A stretch of DNA of 45,478 nt from the IMG/VR virus record IMGVR_UViG_2541047780_000004; one strand, given 5' to 3'. The notes under the pieces are model-generated. The model was not told where the DNA came from, made no database searches, and worked only from the letters and a program-made list of their open reading frames with translations. Each line of letters opens with the position of its first letter. The stretch's first letter is position 1. Below are positions 3,806 to 45,478 of the stretch, one piece after another. The position numbers were made by a program, and so were the translations under genes. This stretch comes from a virus (Duplodnaviria; Heunggongvirae; Uroviricota; Caudoviricetes).

Positions 3806-4570
3806 TCAATCTCCATTGGTATCAATGTTTACAGCCTGACAAGACTCTTTGAGCACCCAGTCAATAGCGTCTTTCCATGCCTCTGTTTCGACTGGTGGAT
3901 TTTCACGCTTAACCTGTTCATAGAAGCGCACTGCTTTAACCAGTCCTTCCGGTACTACTGGTGATGGCTGTTTAGCTTCTAAATCAGCAATTCTGTCAAC
4001 CACGGCATCGACAGCATCTGAAAAGCCGAACCAGTTGCTCCACTCCGGCTCATCCCCGGTTGCTGCAAAGTACATATCTGCTAAAGCAGATTCAGCATGG
4101 TCACGCTCGTTAATGAGTTGCTCTTCGCTTTTCTCCAGTTCAGCAATACGCTTACCCCCATCCGAGATAACACCTTCGTAATACTCACGCTGCTCGTTGA
4201 GTTTTGATTTTGTCTCCTCAAGCTCAACTCTCAGCTTCCCAACAGTAAGAGCAATATCCTCGTTCTCCTGGTCGCGGCGTTTTATGTATTGCTGGTTTCT
4301 TTCCCGTTCATCCAGCAGTGCCAGCACAGTAGCCGGATTGGCTGCGGCGATGAATTCAGCATTGGCCTGCTGTTCCATTTGGAAATCTTCATCGAAACCG
4401 CTTTCTGGATGCGCTCCTTCAATTCTGCAAATGGGAATATATCCAGCAACTTCACGATGAATTAGCGCATAATCACCATCAAATCGGCTCTCTCCATATT
4501 CGAGCGACCACTCACCACACGTTGCTTTTTCTGCCGCTTCACGCAGTGCCTGATAGTTAATTTCGCTCAC
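3806..4570 (-). CDS. Ea22-like early protein
   Basis: 254-aa ORF with GTG start overlapping the upstream TGA (GTGA) and a GAGAGG RBS; coiled-coil-rich sequence resembling lambdoid Ea22-family proteins as recalled. Confidence 0.65.
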   Translation of the reverse strand: MSEINYQALREAAEKATCGEWSLEYGESRFDGDYALIHREVAGYIPICRIEGAHPESGFDEDFQMEQQANAEFIAAANPATVLALLDERERNQQYIKRRDQENEDIALTVGKLRVELEETKSKLNEQREYYEGVISDGGKRIAELEKSEEQLINERDHAESALADMYFAATGDEPEWSNWFGFSDAVDAVVDRIADLEAKQPSPVVPEGLVKAVRFYEQVKRENPPVETEAWKDAIDWVLKESCQAVNIDTNGD

Positions 4571-4788
4571 TTCGAACCTCTCTGTTTACTGATAAGCTCC
4601 AGATCCTCCTGGCAACTTGCACAAGTCCGACAACCCTGAACGACCAGGCGTCTTCGTTCATCTATGGGATCGCCACACTCACAACAATGAGTGGCGGATA
4701 TAGTCTGGTAGTTCAGACGACGCATTTTTATTGCTGTATTGCGCTGTAATTCTTCAATTTCTGATGCTGAATCAATGATGTCCGCCAT
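4567..4788 (-). CDS. TraR/DksA-family C4 zinc-finger protein
   Basis: 73-aa ORF with CxxC...CxxC spacing (CCECGDPIDERRR...CRTCASCQ) typical of phage TraR-like proteins. Confidence 0.75.
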   Translation of the reverse strand: MADIIDSASEIEELQRNTAIKMRRLNYQTISATHCCECGDPIDERRRLVVQGCRTCASCQEDLELISKQRGSK

Positions 4789-4840
4789 CTTTCATTAATC
4801 CCTGAATTGTTGGTTAATACGCTTGAGGGTGAATGCGAAT

Positions 4841-4866
4841 AATAAAAAAGGAGCCTGTAGCTCCCT
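4841..4866 (-). terminator. Rho-independent terminator-like hairpin in the leftward operon
   Basis: Stem GGAGC / GCTCC with loop CTGTA at 4850-4864; on the minus strand it is followed by a T-tract (plus-strand AATAAAAAA at 4841-4849); sits just downstream of the ORF ending at 4887. Confidence 0.5.
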
Positions 4867-4886
4867 GATGATTTTGCTTTTCATGT

Positions 4887-5168
4887 TCACCGTTCCTTAA
4901 AGACGCCGTTTAACATGCCGATCGCCAGGCTTAAATGAGTCGGTGTGAATCCCATCAGCGTTACCGTTTCGCGGTGCTTCTTTAGTACGCTACGGCAAAT
5001 GTCATCGACGTTTTTATCCGGAAACTGCTGTCTGGCTTTTTTGATTTCAGAATTAGCCTGACGGGCAATGCTGCGAAGGGCGTTTTCTTGCTGAGGTGTC
5101 ACTGAACAAGCCCCATGTCGGCAAGCATAAGCACACAGAATATGAAGCCCGCTGCCAGAAAAATGCAT
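4887..5168 (-). CDS. Hypothetical protein (alternative GTG start at 5102 gives 71 aa)
   Basis: 93-aa ORF from ATG 5166-5168 without a clear RBS; an in-frame GTG at 5100-5102 overlaps the stop of a 27-codon ORF in another frame (GTGA), giving an alternative coupled arrangement. Confidence 0.45.
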   Translation of the reverse strand: MHFSGSGLHILCAYACRHGACSVTPQQENALRSIARQANSEIKKARQQFPDKNVDDICRSVLKKHRETVTLMGFTPTHLSLAIGMLNGVFKER

Positions 5169-5182
5169 TCAGTGGTTGTCAT
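5099..5182 (-). CDS. Candidate 27-aa hydrophobic peptide (MTTTECIFLAAGFIFCVLMLADMGLVQ)
   Basis: ATG at 5180-5182 overlaps the upstream stop (ATGA); TGA at 5099-5101 overlaps the next GTG (GTGA); sequence is strongly hydrophobic. Below the 60-aa ORF-track cut-off, so absent from the track. Confidence 0.3.
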   Translation of the reverse strand: MTTTECIFLAAGFIFCVLMLADMGLVQ

Positions 5183-5370
5183 ACCTGGTCTCTCTCATCT
5201 GCTTCTGCTTTCGCCACCATCATTTCCAGCTTTTGTGAAAGGGATGTGGCTAACGTATGAAATTCTTCGTCTGTTTCTACTGGTATTGGCACAAACCTGA
5301 CTCCAATTTGAGCAAGGCTATGTGCCATCTCAATACTCGTTCTTAACTCAACAGGAGATGCTTTGTGCAT
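5179..5370 (-). CDS. Small early protein (resembles Qin-prophage YdfA-type proteins from memory)
   Basis: 63-aa ORF, ATG at 5368-5370 with GGGAGG RBS; family name is unverified recollection. Confidence 0.5.
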   Translation of the reverse strand: MHKASPVELRTSIEMAHSLAQIGVRFVPIPVETDEEFHTLATSLSQKLEMMVAKAEADERDQV

Positions 5371-5531
5371 ACCGCCTCCCGTTTATTATTTATCTTCTCA
5401 GCCAGCCGCTGTGCTTTCAGTGGATTTCTGATAACAGAAAGGCCGGGAAATACCCAGCCTCGCTTTGTAACGGAGTAGACGAAAGTGATCGCGCCTACCC
5501 GGATATTATCGTGAGGATGCGTCATCGCCAT
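5343..5531 (-). CDS. Small early protein (hypothetical)
   Basis: 62-aa ORF, ATG at 5529-5531, overlaps the downstream gene by 28 nt. Confidence 0.45.
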
Positions 5532-5661
5532 TGCTCCCCAAATACAAAACTAATTTCAGCCAGTGCCTCGTCCATTTTTTCGATGAACTCCGGCACCATC
5601 TCGTCAAAACTCGCCATGTACTTTTCATCCCGCTCAACCACGACATAATGCAGTCCTTCAC
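5522..5661 (-). pseudogene. 5'-truncated early-gene remnant abutting the IS911 left end
   Basis: The ORF track's 5522..5710 reading frame runs into the IS911 terminus at 5662, so its first 16 codons are IS-encoded; only the C-terminal 46 codons are phage-derived. Confidence 0.35.
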
Positions 5662-5733
5662 TGAAGTGGTTTACTGAATTTGGCCACCTGAACAGAGGTG
5701 ATATGCTCACCTCAGAACAACACAGGTGCCATA

Positions 5734-6881
<1,148 letters not shown>

Positions 6882-6911
6882 CTCGGTGGCCAGTTTTTGT
6901 TGACCACTTCA

Positions 6912-7075
6912 GGTATACAATCCTCATCCAAGGGGATGATATGGGCTTGTAGCCACATATCAGAGCGACTTGGTTTCTGTTTCCATTTAACGCCAGAAAA
7001 GTTAACTATTTTTTTACAATAAAGTACTTTATCAACTTCTACTTGGCTTGGCTGATAATCATCTATTTTTGCCAA
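6912..7075 (-). pseudogene. 3'-truncated ORF at the rex position (immediately downstream of the repressor gene), cut by IS911
   Basis: Reading frame starts on TTG at 7073-7075 and runs into the IS911 right end at 6911; AT-rich; only 54 phage-derived codons remain. Confidence 0.25.
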
Positions 7076-7114: not shown

Positions 7115-7774
7115 TCACCCAAACGTCTCTTCAGGCCATTGGCTGGCGATAACTTTCCCCACAACGGAACAACTCTCATTGCATGGGATCATTGGGTATT
7201 GTGGGTTTAGTGGCTGTAGAAACACCTGACCGCTATCCCTGATCAGTTTCTTGAAGGTAAATTCATCACCACCAAGTCTGGCTATGCAGAAATCGCCGGG
7301 CTCAACAGCTTGCTCAGGGTCAACCAGAATTAACATCCCGTCAGGAAAGCTGGGTTTGGAACCTGTTGGTGCGGTCATTGAGTTACCTTCAACCTCAAGC
7401 CAGAATGCAGAGTCACTGGCTTTTTTGGTTGTGCTTACCAATCTCTCCGCATCGCCTTTGGTAAAGGTTCTGAGTTCTGGAGAGAACATCCCAGCCTGAA
7501 CATGAGAAAAAACAGGGTACTCATATTGTTTTTTAACTGGGGCCGATGAGTATTCGCCAACAGGTGAAAATGTCCCGTCGTGGTTGAATGATATGTTATC
7601 AATACCAAGGTATTTAAACACCACACCAATATCACTAAGAGATGGATGACGAGATCCGCGCAACCAGTGTCCAATCCCACCCTGCGTCATACCTAGCTCT
7701 TCGGCTAACTTCTCTTGAGTTATGCCGAGCTCTTTCATTCTGGATCTAGCCAGTTCATACCATTTCATTTTCAT
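7115..7774 (-). CDS. cI: CI-type prophage repressor (N-terminal HTH + C-terminal S24 LexA-like peptidase domain)
   Basis: C-terminal 130 aa ([18 protein letters not shown]...[12 protein letters not shown]) match lambda CI as I recall it; N-terminal HTH domain is different. ORF-track start at 7816 is TTG; I chose ATG at 7772-7774 (MKMKWYEL...). Confidence 0.85.
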
Positions 7775-7810
7775 GTCCTTATTATTACGCTCTGTACTGG
7801 AACCATCCAT

Positions 7811-7885
7811 GCACAATGTGTATTTTTACTTGTATTCGCAAAGTACATATTGTATTTTTTTATTCGTGTTTACTATGGAGGGCAT
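7811..7885. promoter_or_regulatory. Divergent cI/cro control region with candidate operator palindromes
   Basis: Intergenic region between divergent cI and cro with short palindromes (CACAATGTG, TACTT-N9-AAGTA, TACATATTGTA); promoter elements not assigned. Confidence 0.4.
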
Positions 7886-29934: not shown

Positions 29935-31501
29935 TTACTGAGAGCTCAGATCAACTTTCCAGGGCAACAGATCGCGTACCCGGTTTGCCGGCCAGTCCTG
30001 GATATGTTCAATGACGTAACGCAGCCACTTTTCTGGCTCCACATTGTTCAGACGGCATGTGCCGATCAGCGAGTACAACACCGCCGCATGTTCACCACCG
30101 CTGTCGGAACCCGCGAACATCCAGTTTTTCCGGCCTACGGCCACTCCCCGTAAGGCGTTCTCTGCGATGTTGTTGTCGATTTCCACCCAGCCATTACTGC
30201 AGTACACGTTCAGTGCATCCCACTGTTTCAGCAGGTATGCGAACGCTTTTGCCGTATCTGAGTGACGCGACAGTGTTTTCATCTGTTGCTGTATCCAGTC
30301 ATACAGTGACTGCATCAGTGGCGCGGCTCTGGCTTTTCTTGCCGCCAGACGCTGTTCTGCTGAACAGCCCCGGACCTCTGCCTCGATGGCATACAGTTCA
30401 CCGATACGCTGCAGGGCTTCCGTGGTGATGTAGGTGGGCGCTCTTGCATGCACATCGTGGATTTTTCTCCGGGCATGAGCCATACACGCGGCTTCCGTTA
30501 TTCTGCCGGATTCGTATAAGGTAACCACCGTAAGCATCGGCCTGAAGCACACCGCTGTAACCGGCCAGGTGATTTTGTGGATGGATACCTTTCCGGTCCG
30601 GACTGTACGCGAACCAGACCGCCGGGGGCATCTGTGAACCGGCGTTACGGTCATCACGGACGTAGACCCACAGCCGGGCTGTCCGGGTTTTACCGCTGCC
30701 CGGCTCCTGGACCGGGACGGGGATATCATCAGCATGGACTTTACCGGGCATCAGCACATACTGGCGCAGGACGTCATACAGCGGCTCCAGCAGTTCAGCA
30801 ACAGCACCTGTCCAGCGCCCCAGTGTGGCACGGCTCAGCTCCACTCCCTGACGACGGTATATTTCTGACTGGCGGTATAACGGCAGATGGTCTGCATATT
30901 TCCCGGTGACAACATGGGCCAGAAGCCCCGCTCCGGCATAACTGCGTGCAATGGGTTTTGAAGGTACTGGTGCCTGCACGATATGGTCGCACCGGCAACA
31001 GGCCTGTTTCGGACGTTGTGTTTCGATAACCTTAAAGGCGCTGCTGATAAGCTCCAGTTGCTCTGACACATCACATCCCAGAGAACTGAGTTCACCACCA
31101 CAGGCAGGACAGCATTCCTCTTCCGGCCGGATAACCCGGGTTTCACGGGGAAGTGAGGCCGGTAACGGTTTACGGGCTGAAGACTGGCGCAGGGCGGATG
31201 GCAGTACCGGGTCATATTGCTCACCCAGCGTTTCCGCCATTTCTTCCTGAAGTGCGCTGATTCGCTCCTGTGCTTCCTGTATCTGCCGTTCGGTTTTTGC
31301 ACGAAGTTTTTCTGAGCTTTTACCGAACTGCATACGTTGCAGTTTCGCAACCAGCGCCTTCAGCCGGTTGATTTCGGAAGCATAAGCCGCCACCCGCTGT
31401 GAGAGCAGGCGGTTGTATTCAGCCATCTGGCGGATGGTGTCCTGTTGCGTCTGCAACAGTGCCCGCAGGCGGGCGTTCTCATGAGCAAGTGAGGTGTCCA
31501 T
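29935..31501 (-). pseudogene. IS66-family transposase (ISEc8-like), split into two overlapping frames by a frameshift
   Basis: N-terminal ORF 30398..31501 and C-terminal ORF 29935..30735 are consecutive parts of one transposase; the frame switch is near 30510-30530 (after ...ADAYGGY). Confidence 0.7.
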
Positions 31502-44897: not shown

Positions 44898-45172
44898 AAG
44901 ATTTAACTTTGAAGTTTCATGACAAACTGCAGTTTAAGGCCTTCCTGTCATCTCTTGACTGGGAGGAGGATGAAGACCTCCAGAATAAACTGTTAGTCGA
45001 TGAAATTGGTTTCACCTACACAGAAACAGGGGTAACAGAAGAGGGAGAACCTGTCTGTGTCCGGAATGACGGTTATTTTGTCAACATTCGCATTCTTGAT
45101 GACTTGTTTGATGTTTCTGTATTCTCTGATTATGTCGTGGAGCTGGAAACACCGCTTCGGGAATGGAGCTGA
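44894..45172 (+). CDS. Hypothetical acidic protein translationally coupled to the tail fibre gene
   Basis: ATG overlaps the stf stop (ATGA); 92 aa; no resemblance to Tfa-type fibre chaperones that I recognise. Confidence 0.5.
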   Translation: MKDLTLKFHDKLQFKAFLSSLDWEEDEDLQNKLLVDEIGFTYTETGVTEEGEPVCVRNDGYFVNIRILDDLFDVSVFSDYVVELETPLREWS

Positions 45173-45184
45173 AAGGAGGAAATA

Positions 45185-45478
45185 ATGGATATAAGCCCCT
45201 TACTTCATGCGCTTTGTGCTGTGGCTGCGCAGATACTGGTTGGTCTTTTTACCGGAAACTGGGCTTACGGAGCGATAGCCGGTTGTACGTTCTTCATTGC
45301 GCGTGAACATACCCAGGCAGAATATCGCTGGATTGAAATGTTCGGGCATGGCAAGCGAATGAATATGCCGTGGTGGGGCGGTTTTGATCCGCGAGCTTGG
45401 GATGTGGCAAGCCTGATGGATTTTGCTGTGCCGGTGGTGGCGTGTCTGCTGGTCTGGCTGTTGGTTAATCGTGGGTGA
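45185..45478 (+). CDS. Hypothetical small membrane protein
   Basis: 97-aa ORF with AAAGGAGGA RBS; two or three predicted hydrophobic segments; stop at the window end. Confidence 0.5.
   Translation: MDISPLLHALCAVAAQILVGLFTGNWAYGAIAGCTFFIAREHTQAEYRWIEMFGHGKRMNMPWWGGFDPRAWDVASLMDFAVPVVACLLVWLLVNRG

What the first reader, a model, noticed from the sequence alone, without database searches (positions are those of the whole stretch)
5099..5182. Translationally coupled 27-codon hydrophobic ORF hidden inside the 5' end of a longer ORF
An ATG overlapping the upstream stop (ATGA) opens a 27-codon frame (MTTTECIFLAAGFIFCVLMLADMGLVQ) whose TGA overlaps an in-frame GTG of the next gene (GTGA). This is the same coupling pattern used elsewhere in this operon, which argues that the small ORF is real and that the 93-aa ORF may instead start at the GTG. 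Small single-pass membrane peptides in prophage early regions are often toxic or regulatory.
Basis: seen in the sequence. Interest (0 to 1): 0.45.

Follow-up and report, generated by a model that had tools for sequence, protein, structure and literature searches.

The report
Unannotated 27-residue membrane peptide gene in lambda
Between orf63 and orf61 in the early-left "exo-xis" block of this lambda-like prophage, and in phage lambda itself, sits a conserved 27-codon gene for a very hydrophobic peptide; it is linked start-to-stop with both neighbours, is missing from the reference annotations I read, and shows that the first 22 codons usually assigned to "orf61" are not really part of that protein.

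Summary
**Observation: confirmed.** On the minus strand, ATG 5182..5180 overlaps the TGA of orf63 (DUF1382). It opens MTTTECIFLAAGFIFCVLMLADMGLVQ. Its TGA (5101..5099) overlaps GTG 5102..5100, which is in frame with the 93-aa ORF.

**Interpretation: supported.**
- In 313 related copies (33 haplotypes), substitutions follow the small frame: 14 synonymous to 14 non-synonymous events against 25% expected (p=0.004). By copies the count is 419 to 40.
- The 93-aa frame looks unconstrained (5 to 23).
- The downstream start is ATG in 182 of 195 relatives.
- RefSeq's annotation pipeline (PGAP) and curated records for phages 434 and 21 start the gene there (71 aa).
- An SfI-type variant lacks the small ORF and starts orf61 at the same codon.
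- The ATGA overlap persists when the upstream gene is a different one (an adenine methyltransferase).
- Lambda encodes the identical peptide. Its "orf61" is an out-of-frame extension joined to a frameshifted copy of the 71-aa gene.

**Most likely mechanism.** It is a translationally coupled small protein, probably membrane-inserted, that also hands ribosomes to orf61.

**Limits.** Translation, membrane location and function are untested. No homologues were found outside Escherichia/Shigella lambdoid phages. In this window an IS3-like element separates the block from the immunity region.

It is a new member of a known kind, of moderate interest.

The parts
5179..5370 (-). orf63 (DUF1382), the upstream gene. 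Its TGA (5181..5179) is overlapped by the small ORF's ATG.
   Evidence: Pfam DUF1382, E=7.7e-31. PGAP annotation in relatives. Junction sequence.
5099..5182 (-). The 27-codon small ORF, MTTTECIFLAAGFIFCVLMLADMGLVQ. It has a 16-residue hydrophobic core (C6-A21) flanked by E5 and D22, and no basic residue.
   Evidence: Sequence. Frame-specific synonymous excess in 313 copies. Hydrophobicity rank 2 of 283. Identical peptide in lambda, Phi24B, 933W, 434 and DE3.
5179..5182 (-). ATGA overlap: stop of orf63 and start of the small ORF.
   Evidence: Kept in 195 of 195 related copies, including 22 with a methyltransferase gene upstream and a variant orf63 C-terminus (L296).
5099..5102 (-). GTGA overlap: stop of the small ORF and true start of orf61. 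It is ATGA in most relatives.
   Evidence: ATG in 182 and GTG in 13 of 195.
4887..5102 (-). orf61 proper, 71 aa starting VTPQQENALRS (MTPQQ in relatives).
   Evidence: PGAP WP_000188870.1. Curated 434 and 21 records. Substitution ratio about 0.35 in this frame. SfI-type start at the same codon.
5103..5168 (-). Spurious 22-codon N-terminal extension (MHFSGSGLHILCAYACRHGACS) that turns the 71-aa gene into the 93-aa ORF.
   Evidence: 5 synonymous to 23 non-synonymous events in this frame. Weak Shine-Dalgarno pairing, -3.8 kcal/mol. Variable upstream limit. Published AlphaFold and RoseTTAFold models disagree on where residues 1-23 sit, and those residues were left out of the model statistics (PMC8614690).
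4795..4890 (-). The next small ORF (31 aa from GTG 4890, or 29 aa from ATG 4884), joined to the orf61 stop by GTGA. It contains a terminator-like hairpin at 4866..4848.
   Evidence: Annotated as a 29-aa CDS in the 434, 21, SfI and one lambda record.
5343..5531 (-). orf60a (DUF1317), upstream member of the same coupled block. The PGAP start at 5525 overlaps the exo stop (ATGA).
   Evidence: Pfam DUF1317, E=2.5e-38..

Best explanation
The 84-bp frame is a genuine but unannotated gene of the lambdoid exo-xis block (exo, orf60a, orf63, small ORF, orf61, 31-aa ORF, orf73, ea22).

1. The block is transcribed with the early-left operon. This step comes from the literature on lambda.
2. Ribosomes finishing orf63 at TGA restart on the overlapping ATG (ATGA) and make a 27-residue peptide.
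3. The peptide's 16-residue apolar core, flanked by E5 and D22, most likely sits in the inner membrane as a single short helix.
4. When the ribosome reaches the small ORF's TGA it is already on the ATG/GTG of orf61, which has only a weak Shine-Dalgarno sequence. The small ORF therefore also relays translation from orf63 into orf61.
5. The real Orf61 is 71 aa. The 93-aa form (and lambda's 61-aa form) is an annotation artefact that swallowed the small gene.

Shown here: the anatomy, its conservation, frame-specific purifying selection, and the true orf61 start.
Inferred: translation, membrane insertion, and the relay role.
Guess only: the peptide acts on the membrane or on a host membrane protein early after induction.
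For: **Anatomy:**

**Frame-specific constraint:** 313 copies, 33 haplotypes, 28 distinct substitutions.
- Small frame: 14 synonymous to 14 non-synonymous against 25% expected (binomial p=0.004, ratio about 0.34).
- 15 of 28 changes lie at codon position 3.
- By copies the count is 419 synonymous to 40 non-synonymous.
- Of the 9 alleles seen in 5 or more copies, 7 are synonymous (my arithmetic, p about 0.001).
- The other sense frames give 7:21 and 5:23.
- For comparison, orf61 (71 aa) has a ratio of about 0.35 and orf63 about 0.66 in the same loci.

**Integrity:** 194 of 195 copies are intact, and the exception loses only the last codon.

**Coupling:**
- ATGA is kept in 195 of 195 copies.
- It is kept after a methyltransferase gene, where a strong GGGAGG site precedes it.
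- It is kept with a divergent orf63 C-terminus.

**Mosaic junction:** in the methyltransferase context, homology begins exactly at the small ORF's ATG.

**orf61 start:**. Its Shine-Dalgarno pairing is weak, -3.9 to -4.7 kcal/mol.

**Hydrophobicity:** rank 2 of 283.

**No RNA-structure explanation:** fold z-score +1.9.

**Prior automatic calls:** the peptide is already a 'hypothetical protein' in some GenBank and UniRef entries, on 981 contigs.
Against: - There is no direct evidence of translation. I could not read the lambda ribosome-profiling paper. A review credits it with only 7-aa and 31-aa additions in this region.
- All relatives are at least about 88% identical in DNA. No distant homologue exists to test deep conservation.
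- Only 28 substitution events are available. Half are non-synonymous, including I14K, G12V and D22G.
- The antisense frame whose third positions coincide also shows a weaker excess (11:17, p=0.03).
- The peptide has no basic residue and only a 16-residue core, which is atypical for known small membrane proteins.
- The gene is dispensable. SfI-type phages lack it. One Escherichia clade prophage has a 14-nt deletion fusing its ATG to orf61. One lineage carries an IS66 in it.
- Its own Shine-Dalgarno pairing in the orf63 context is only modest, -5.6 kcal/mol.
Confidence: 0.7

Rival explanations
1. The small ORF is translated only as a relay. Its job is to carry ribosomes from orf63 to the weak start of orf61, and the peptide itself has no function.
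For: - Stop/start overlaps at both ends.
- Weak Shine-Dalgarno pairing at the orf61 start.
- The small ORF always travels with the MTPQQE-type orf61.
- SfI-type loci that lack it have a somewhat better site in front of orf61, GAGG at -5.6 kcal/mol.
Against: - A pure relay would tolerate amino-acid changes. Yet common alleles are almost all synonymous (419 to 40 copies).
- The composition is extreme, rank 2 of 283 for hydrophobicity.
- A relay would not need 27 codons.
Confidence: 0.15
2. The 93-aa ORF (lambda's orf61 frame) is the real product, as used in the exo-xis literature and in PHROG 303. On this reading the small ORF is a chance open frame inside it.
For: - The PHROG 303 profile covers residues 1-93.
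- Many GenBank records annotate 93 aa.
- The Escherichia sp. E1V33 locus has a strong Shine-Dalgarno site plus an ATG opening this frame.
Against: - The frame shows 5 synonymous to 23 non-synonymous changes.
- Its ATG has poor Shine-Dalgarno pairing.
- Its upstream limit varies between TGA, GGA and AGA.
- PGAP and the curated records choose 71 aa.
- SfI-type proteins start at the internal codon.
- The internal codon is ATG in 93% of copies.
- The E1V33 arrangement appears in 0 of 5,426 complete E. coli genomes. It is explained by a 14-nt deletion within the small ORF, because its flank GGAGGCGGCATGACAA matches the methyltransferase-context flank.
- Published models leave residues 1-23 unplaced.
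Confidence: 0.07
3. The stretch is conserved for a non-coding reason, such as an RNA structure, a regulatory site or an antisense gene (+ strand ORF 5115..5300), and is not translated in the small frame.
For: - The antisense frame that shares third positions gives 11:17, p=0.03.
- DNA identity among relatives is high everywhere, so conservation alone says little.
Against: - The three-base periodicity is strongest in the sense small frame.
- The antisense signal is the expected mirror of shared third positions.
- The antisense ORF mostly overlaps orf63, where no frame is favoured.
- No promoter-like site faces that way within about 350 bases of the ORF.
- The RNA fold is weaker than shuffled controls, z=+1.9.
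Confidence: 0.05

Closest known systems
Lambda orf61 / Phi24B Orf61 (vb_24B_7c), PHROG 303 and 26061
   Same: This is the same DNA. The small ORF lies inside the 5' part of the ORF annotated as orf61 in lambda (NC_001416, 30839..31024) and as 93 aa in Stx phages.
   Different: It uses a different reading frame and gives a different product. The evidence here says Orf61 is 71 aa. The annotated N-terminus (22 codons, plus 10 more in lambda) is not under protein-level constraint. Lambda's copy also carries an extra A that truncates the true protein to 29 aa.
[quoted passage not shown] 2008 class, for example YohP, AcrZ, MgtS, KdpF)
   Same: It is shorter than 50 aa with one hydrophobic helix-length segment, was missed by annotation, and is recognised by conservation with a synonymous bias. 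The named examples come from my own knowledge; the class is cited.
   Different: There is no sequence similarity to any family. It is phage-borne, translated by coupling rather than from its own strong ribosome-binding site, has no basic residues, and has a short (16-residue) core.
Type I toxin peptides (Hok, Ldr, Ibs, TisB, ShoB, DinQ)
   Same: It is a very small hydrophobic peptide that could perturb the membrane.
   Different: It is not a stand-alone locus. No antisense promoter-like site lies within about 350 bases of it, there is no structured leader, and it sits inside a coupled operon.
Translationally coupled phage gene chains with NTGA overlaps
   Same: The four-base stop/start overlaps are the same as those found five times in this block.
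   Different: Here the coupled cistron is only 27 codons long and bridges two longer genes.
Rz1 inside Rz of lambda (a gene hidden in another frame of an annotated gene)
   Same: It is a small lambda gene, encoding a membrane-associated product, that went unnoticed because it lies within a longer annotated ORF (my own knowledge).
   Different: Rz and Rz1 truly overlap. Here the overlapped part of the longer ORF appears not to be coding, so the two genes are adjacent rather than nested.

Membership tests
Translationally coupled cistron (termination-reinitiation at NTGA) | The start codon overlaps the stop codon of the upstream gene on the same strand. | tested here: met
   ATGA at 5182..5179. 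Kept in 195 of 195 relatives with three different upstream contexts.
Translationally coupled cistron (termination-reinitiation at NTGA) | Downstream translation depends on upstream translation. | not testable with these tools
   This needs reporter fusions with upstream stop or start mutants. The only indirect support is weak Shine-Dalgarno pairing at the small ORF (-5.6) and at orf61 (-3.9 to -4.7 kcal/mol).
Bacterial/phage small membrane protein (50 aa or fewer, single transmembrane segment) | A hydrophobic segment long enough to span the membrane. | tested here: inconclusive
   The core CIFLAAGFIFCVLMLA (16 aa) sums to -3.4 kcal/mol on the Hessa scale, and the best 19-21-residue windows sum to about 0. 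It ranks 2 of 283. However, the core is short and there are no flanking basic residues.
Bacterial/phage small membrane protein (50 aa or fewer, single transmembrane segment) | Protein-level purifying selection among homologues. | tested here: met
   14 synonymous to 14 non-synonymous events against 25% expected, p=0.004. By copies, 419 to 40.
Bacterial/phage small membrane protein (50 aa or fewer, single transmembrane segment) | The protein is detected and is membrane-associated. | not testable with these tools
   No paper in the library contains the peptide. The ribosome-profiling paper is not held.
Type I toxin-antitoxin toxin | An antisense or adjacent small-RNA antitoxin with its own promoter. 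| tested here: not met
   No promoter-like site lies on the opposite strand within about 350 bases of the ORF. This was a consensus scan only.
Type I toxin-antitoxin toxin | A structured mRNA leader that limits translation. | tested here: not met
   The region folds less well than shuffled controls, z=+1.9, and the ORF is coupled within an operon.
Orf61 as annotated (93 aa; PHROG 303) | The N-terminal 22 residues are encoded by a frame under protein-level constraint. | tested here: not met
   5 synonymous to 23 non-synonymous events in that frame. The SfI-type protein lacks the segment.
Cell division protein ZapA (the RefSeq name on some Orf61 copies) | A match to Pfam PF05164 at or above its gathering score. 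| tested here: not met
   16.2 bits against a cut-off of 23.8, E=0.014. No NCBIfam hit.

The most novel reading that the evidence does not exclude
Phage lambda and the Shiga-toxin phages carry a previously undescribed 27-residue membrane microprotein with its own activity. That activity might be modulating a host inner-membrane protein, or contributing to the lysis-lysogeny and host-survival effects now credited to orf61. The published orf61 deletions replaced the whole annotated ORF and so removed this gene too. They still had effects in lambda, mainly on lysogenization and smaller than in Phi24B, even though lambda's true orf61 is frameshifted.
Probability: 0.25. Interest if true: 0.6.

Novelty: new member of a known kind. 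Interest (0 to 1): 0.45.

Why it matters
- **Reach.** The stretch is in phage lambda itself, in Phi24B, 933W, VT2-Sakai, 434, 21 and DE3. It is in about 60% of complete E. coli genomes: 3,281 of 5,426 hold the 501-bp region.
- **Effect on published work.** Studies of the exo-xis region model, delete and compare "Orf61" as 61 or 93 aa. If the reading here is right, three things follow:
  - Those structural models carry a false N-terminus.
  - Lambda's orf61 is a frameshifted remnant.
  - The deletion phenotypes mix two genes.
- **Testability.** It adds a cheap, testable candidate to the short list of phage-encoded membrane microproteins.
- **Scale.** It does not change any general principle.

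Tried and rejected
- **Homologue search with the peptide.** The search for homologous proteins refuses queries under 40 aa.
- **Family libraries.** Pfam, PHROGs and NCBIfam gave only sub-threshold matches to other hydrophobic segments.
- **Distant relatives through Orf61.** Searching with the 71-aa protein gave two hits at 51-52% identity. Both turned out to be indel-ridden copies of the same DNA. Other odd-length hits were an IS66 insertion and a prophage edge.
- **GTDB genome scan.** It mostly returned lambda DNA inside unrelated genomes, which is contamination.
- **Ribosome-profiling paper.** Liu et al. 2013 is not held. Searches for the peptide or for lambda small-protein studies found nothing.
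- **RNA-structure explanation.** Rejected; z=+1.9.
- **Antisense-gene explanation.** Rejected as a mirror effect.
- **E1V33 locus as support for the 93-aa frame.** Rejected after seeing that its flank matches the small ORF's start context, and that the arrangement is absent from 5,426 E. coli genomes.
- **Structure prediction of the peptide.** Not possible; the minimum is 30 aa.

Full report
**What is in the sequence**

The genes here run on the minus strand. They form the exo-xis block of a lambda-like prophage:
- a fragment of exo
- orf60a (DUF1317, 5531/5525..5343)
- orf63 (DUF1382, 5370..5179)
- the small ORF (5182..5099)
- the orf61 homologue (to 4887)
- a 29/31-aa ORF (4890..4795)
- orf73 (TraR/DksA family, 4788..4567)
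- an ea22-like gene (4570..3806)

The small ORF's ATG overlaps the TGA of orf63 (ATGA). Its own TGA overlaps a GTG that is codon 23 of the 93-aa ORF (GTGA). The same four-base overlap joins exo to orf60a, orf61 to the 31-aa ORF, and orf73 to the ea22-like gene.

**Where else it occurs**

- The 501-bp stretch around it is present in 3,281 of 5,426 complete E. coli genomes and in 183 phage records, nearly all at 95-100% identity.
- A translated search with the peptide finds it in 176 phage records. These include lambda, 434, DE3, Phi24B (vB_EcoP_24B), 933W and VT2-Sakai. Nothing convincing lies outside Escherichia lambdoid phages.
- Lambda's copy differs from the window at three bases within the ORF. 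All three are silent in the small frame. One of them turns the downstream GTG into ATG.
- The exact peptide is already in public protein collections as an automatic 'hypothetical protein' (UniRef A0A0A2SGE8), seen on 981 contigs.
- It is not annotated in any lambda, 434 or 21 record I read, nor by PGAP in the RefSeq genomes I read.
- No paper in the library contains its sequence.

**Where orf61 starts**

- PGAP starts the gene at the GTG/ATG and gives a 71-aa protein, leaving a 76-bp gap exactly where the small ORF lies. The curated 434 and 21 records do the same.
- In 195 related copies the start codon is ATG in 182 and GTG in 13.
- In phage SfI and similar prophages a different gene lies upstream and there is no small ORF. 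The protein there begins at the equivalent codon, MTIEHNNALRS....
- The codon just before the 93-aa frame's ATG is TGA in 53 copies, GGA in 96 and AGA in 44. That frame therefore has no fixed beginning.
- Lambda's annotated orf61 has three parts: 10 such upstream codons, the 22-codon extension, and 29 codons of the true gene. The true gene is cut short by an extra A in an A-run (7 A in lambda and three other loci; 6 A in about 280 others).
- The published models of Phi24B Orf61 already set residues 1-23 aside because the two prediction methods disagreed on them (PMC8614690).

**Is the small frame coding?**

I collected copies of the locus using anchors inside orf61, so nothing was selected on the small ORF itself. 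The sources were IMG/VR, GTDB genomes and metagenomes. This gave 313 copies and 33 haplotypes. Some IMG/VR contigs were fetched twice, so copy numbers are inflated. The number of distinct substitutions is not affected.

Counting each distinct substitution once (28 events between the start and stop codons):

| Frame | Synonymous : non-synonymous | Note |
|---|---|---|
| Small ORF (sense) | 14 : 14 | 25% synonymous expected; binomial p=0.004; ratio about 0.34 |
| 93-aa frame (sense) | 5 : 23 | no constraint |
| Third sense frame | 7 : 21 | no constraint |
| Antisense, third positions coincide | 11 : 17 | p=0.03 |
| Other two antisense frames | 9 : 19 and 5 : 23 | no constraint |

- 15 of the 28 events are at codon position 3 of the small frame.
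- By copies, the small frame has 419 synonymous against 40 non-synonymous.
- Of the nine alleles present in five or more copies, seven are silent (my arithmetic, p about 0.001).
- The weaker antisense excess is the expected echo of shared third positions. That antisense ORF mostly overlaps orf63, where no frame stands out.
- For scale, the 71-aa orf61 has a ratio of about 0.35 and orf63 about 0.66 in the same loci.
- The RNA of the region folds less well than shuffled controls (z=+1.9), so structure does not explain the pattern.

**Gene-boundary evidence**

- Some prophages replace orf63 with an N6-adenine methyltransferase gene. In these, similarity to the window begins exactly at the small ORF's ATG. 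That ATG again overlaps the upstream TGA and is preceded by a strong GGGAGG site.
- A variant orf63 with a different C-terminus keeps the overlap too.
- The ATGA is present in 195 of 195 copies.
- Of these, 194 have an intact 27-codon frame. The exception has a stop at the last codon.
- In the larger set, one copy loses the stop. One copy, from a 1.3x-coverage contig, has a single-base deletion.

**Counter-examples**

- Escherichia sp. E1V33 has a 14-nt shorter version. The same start context (GGAGGCGGCATGACAA; compare GGAGGCTGCATGACAA in the methyltransferase context) now opens the 93-aa frame. The arrangement is absent from all 5,426 complete E. coli genomes. I read it as a deletion that destroyed the small gene.
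- One E. coli lineage carries an IS66 element inside the small ORF.
- The SfI type lacks the small ORF altogether.
- The gene is therefore dispensable. That fits the exo-xis region as a whole, which the literature describes as non-essential.

**The peptide**

- It has a 16-residue apolar core (CIFLAAGFIFCVLMLA; about -3.4 kcal/mol on the Hessa scale) between E5 and D22.
- It has no basic residue.
- It ranks second of 283 ATG-started ORFs of 20-60 aa in the window for hydrophobicity.
- It matches no Pfam, PHROG or NCBIfam family above threshold.
- I infer a short single membrane helix, but orientation and insertion are open.

**How it most likely works**

- Shine-Dalgarno pairing is modest before the small ORF in the orf63 context (-5.6 kcal/mol).
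- It is poor before the 93-aa frame's ATG (-3.8) and poor before the orf61 start (-3.9 to -4.7).
- The most economical reading is a relay. Ribosomes ending orf63 restart on the small ORF, and ribosomes ending the small ORF restart on orf61.
- The amino-acid-level constraint argues that the peptide also matters in its own right.
- What it does is unknown. My best guess is an action at the inner membrane early after induction, and I hold this at low confidence.

**Bearing on the literature**

- The Gdansk and York groups treat Orf61 as 61 aa (lambda) or 93 aa (Phi24B).
- Their orf61 deletions replaced the whole annotated ORF with an 87-nt scar. In lambda this removes the entire small ORF; in Phi24B it removes codons 6-27.
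- Effects were stronger in Phi24B than in lambda, but lysogenization rose in both.
- Lambda's true orf61 is frameshifted, so part of the lambda phenotype could come from the small gene or from polarity. This is inference only.
- A review says lambda ribosome profiling added a 7-aa and a 31-aa ORF in this region. The 31-aa one fits the GTG-started ORF at 4890..4795. I could not read the original paper.

**This particular copy**

In the window an IS3-like element (ISEc52 family, about 5700-6950) lies between the repressor gene and a short exo remnant. N, cIII, kil, gam, bet and most of exo are missing. Transcription of the block from the early-left promoter is therefore doubtful here. The argument for the gene rests on its relatives.

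**Verdict**

- This is a new, unannotated member of a familiar kind: a translationally coupled small hydrophobic protein. It also corrects the orf61 gene model.
- Translation and function remain to be shown.

Noticed in passing
L003 (NC_001416) 1340-1525, that is lambda 30839..31024: Lambda's reference 'orf61' is a composite: 10 + 22 codons in a frame that shows no protein-level constraint, then 29 codons of the true 71-aa gene. The true gene is cut short by an extra A (7 A against 6 A in about 280 other copies). From its real ATG, lambda would make only MTPQQENALRSIARQANSEIKKSQTAVSG.
   Followed up: yes
window 4795..4890 (-), hairpin 4866..4848: A second small ORF (31 aa from GTG, 29 aa from ATG; MKSKIIRELQAPFLLFAFTLKRINQQFRD) is joined to the orf61 stop by GTGA. 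It contains a terminator-like hairpin followed by a T-run. It is annotated in the 434, 21, SfI and one lambda record. It probably corresponds to the 31-aa ORF that a review attributes to lambda ribosome profiling.
   Followed up: partly
window about 5700..6950, with 5522..5710 and 7115..7816: An IS3-like element (ISEc52 family) sits between the cI-like repressor gene and a short 3' remnant of exo. The genes from N to bet are absent, so the exo-xis block of this prophage is cut off from its normal early-left promoter region.
   Followed up: partly
L012 1435..1716 (Escherichia sp. E1V33): A 14-nt shorter version of the small ORF fuses its ATG in frame to orf61. It lies after a 355-aa gene carrying a DGQHR motif. 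The leftover small-frame codons lie in frame directly after that gene's TGA. The arrangement is absent from 5,426 complete E. coli genomes.
   Followed up: partly
L233 881..2803: An IS66-family element is inserted inside the small ORF in one E. coli lineage. This creates a 100-aa ORF whose protein cluster has 125 member sequences.
   Followed up: partly
window 4887..5102 (-): RefSeq names many copies of the 71-aa Orf61 'cell division protein ZapA'. The Pfam ZapA match is below threshold (16.2 against 23.8 bits), there is no NCBIfam match, and no solved structure is related by sequence.
   Followed up: partly
L013-L026 and others (GTDB genome contigs): Lambda DNA identical to the reference, including the 7-A allele, turns up in assemblies labelled Shewanella, Bradyrhizobium, Pseudomonas, Paenibacillus, Kitasatospora and others. 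A 'Campylobacter phage CJLB-4' record also holds the peptide. This is most likely laboratory lambda contamination.
   Followed up: no
window 45057..45185 (+): This is the only short ORF in the window more hydrophobic than the finding (MTVILSTFAFLMTCLMFLYSLIMSWSWKHRFGNGAERRK). It overlaps the end of a 92-aa ORF in another frame.
   Followed up: no
proteins P0006, P0007: Two 428-aa proteins with no visible resemblance to the peptide sit in the same 90%-identity cluster as the 27-aa peptide. This is presumably a clustering artefact.
   Followed up: no
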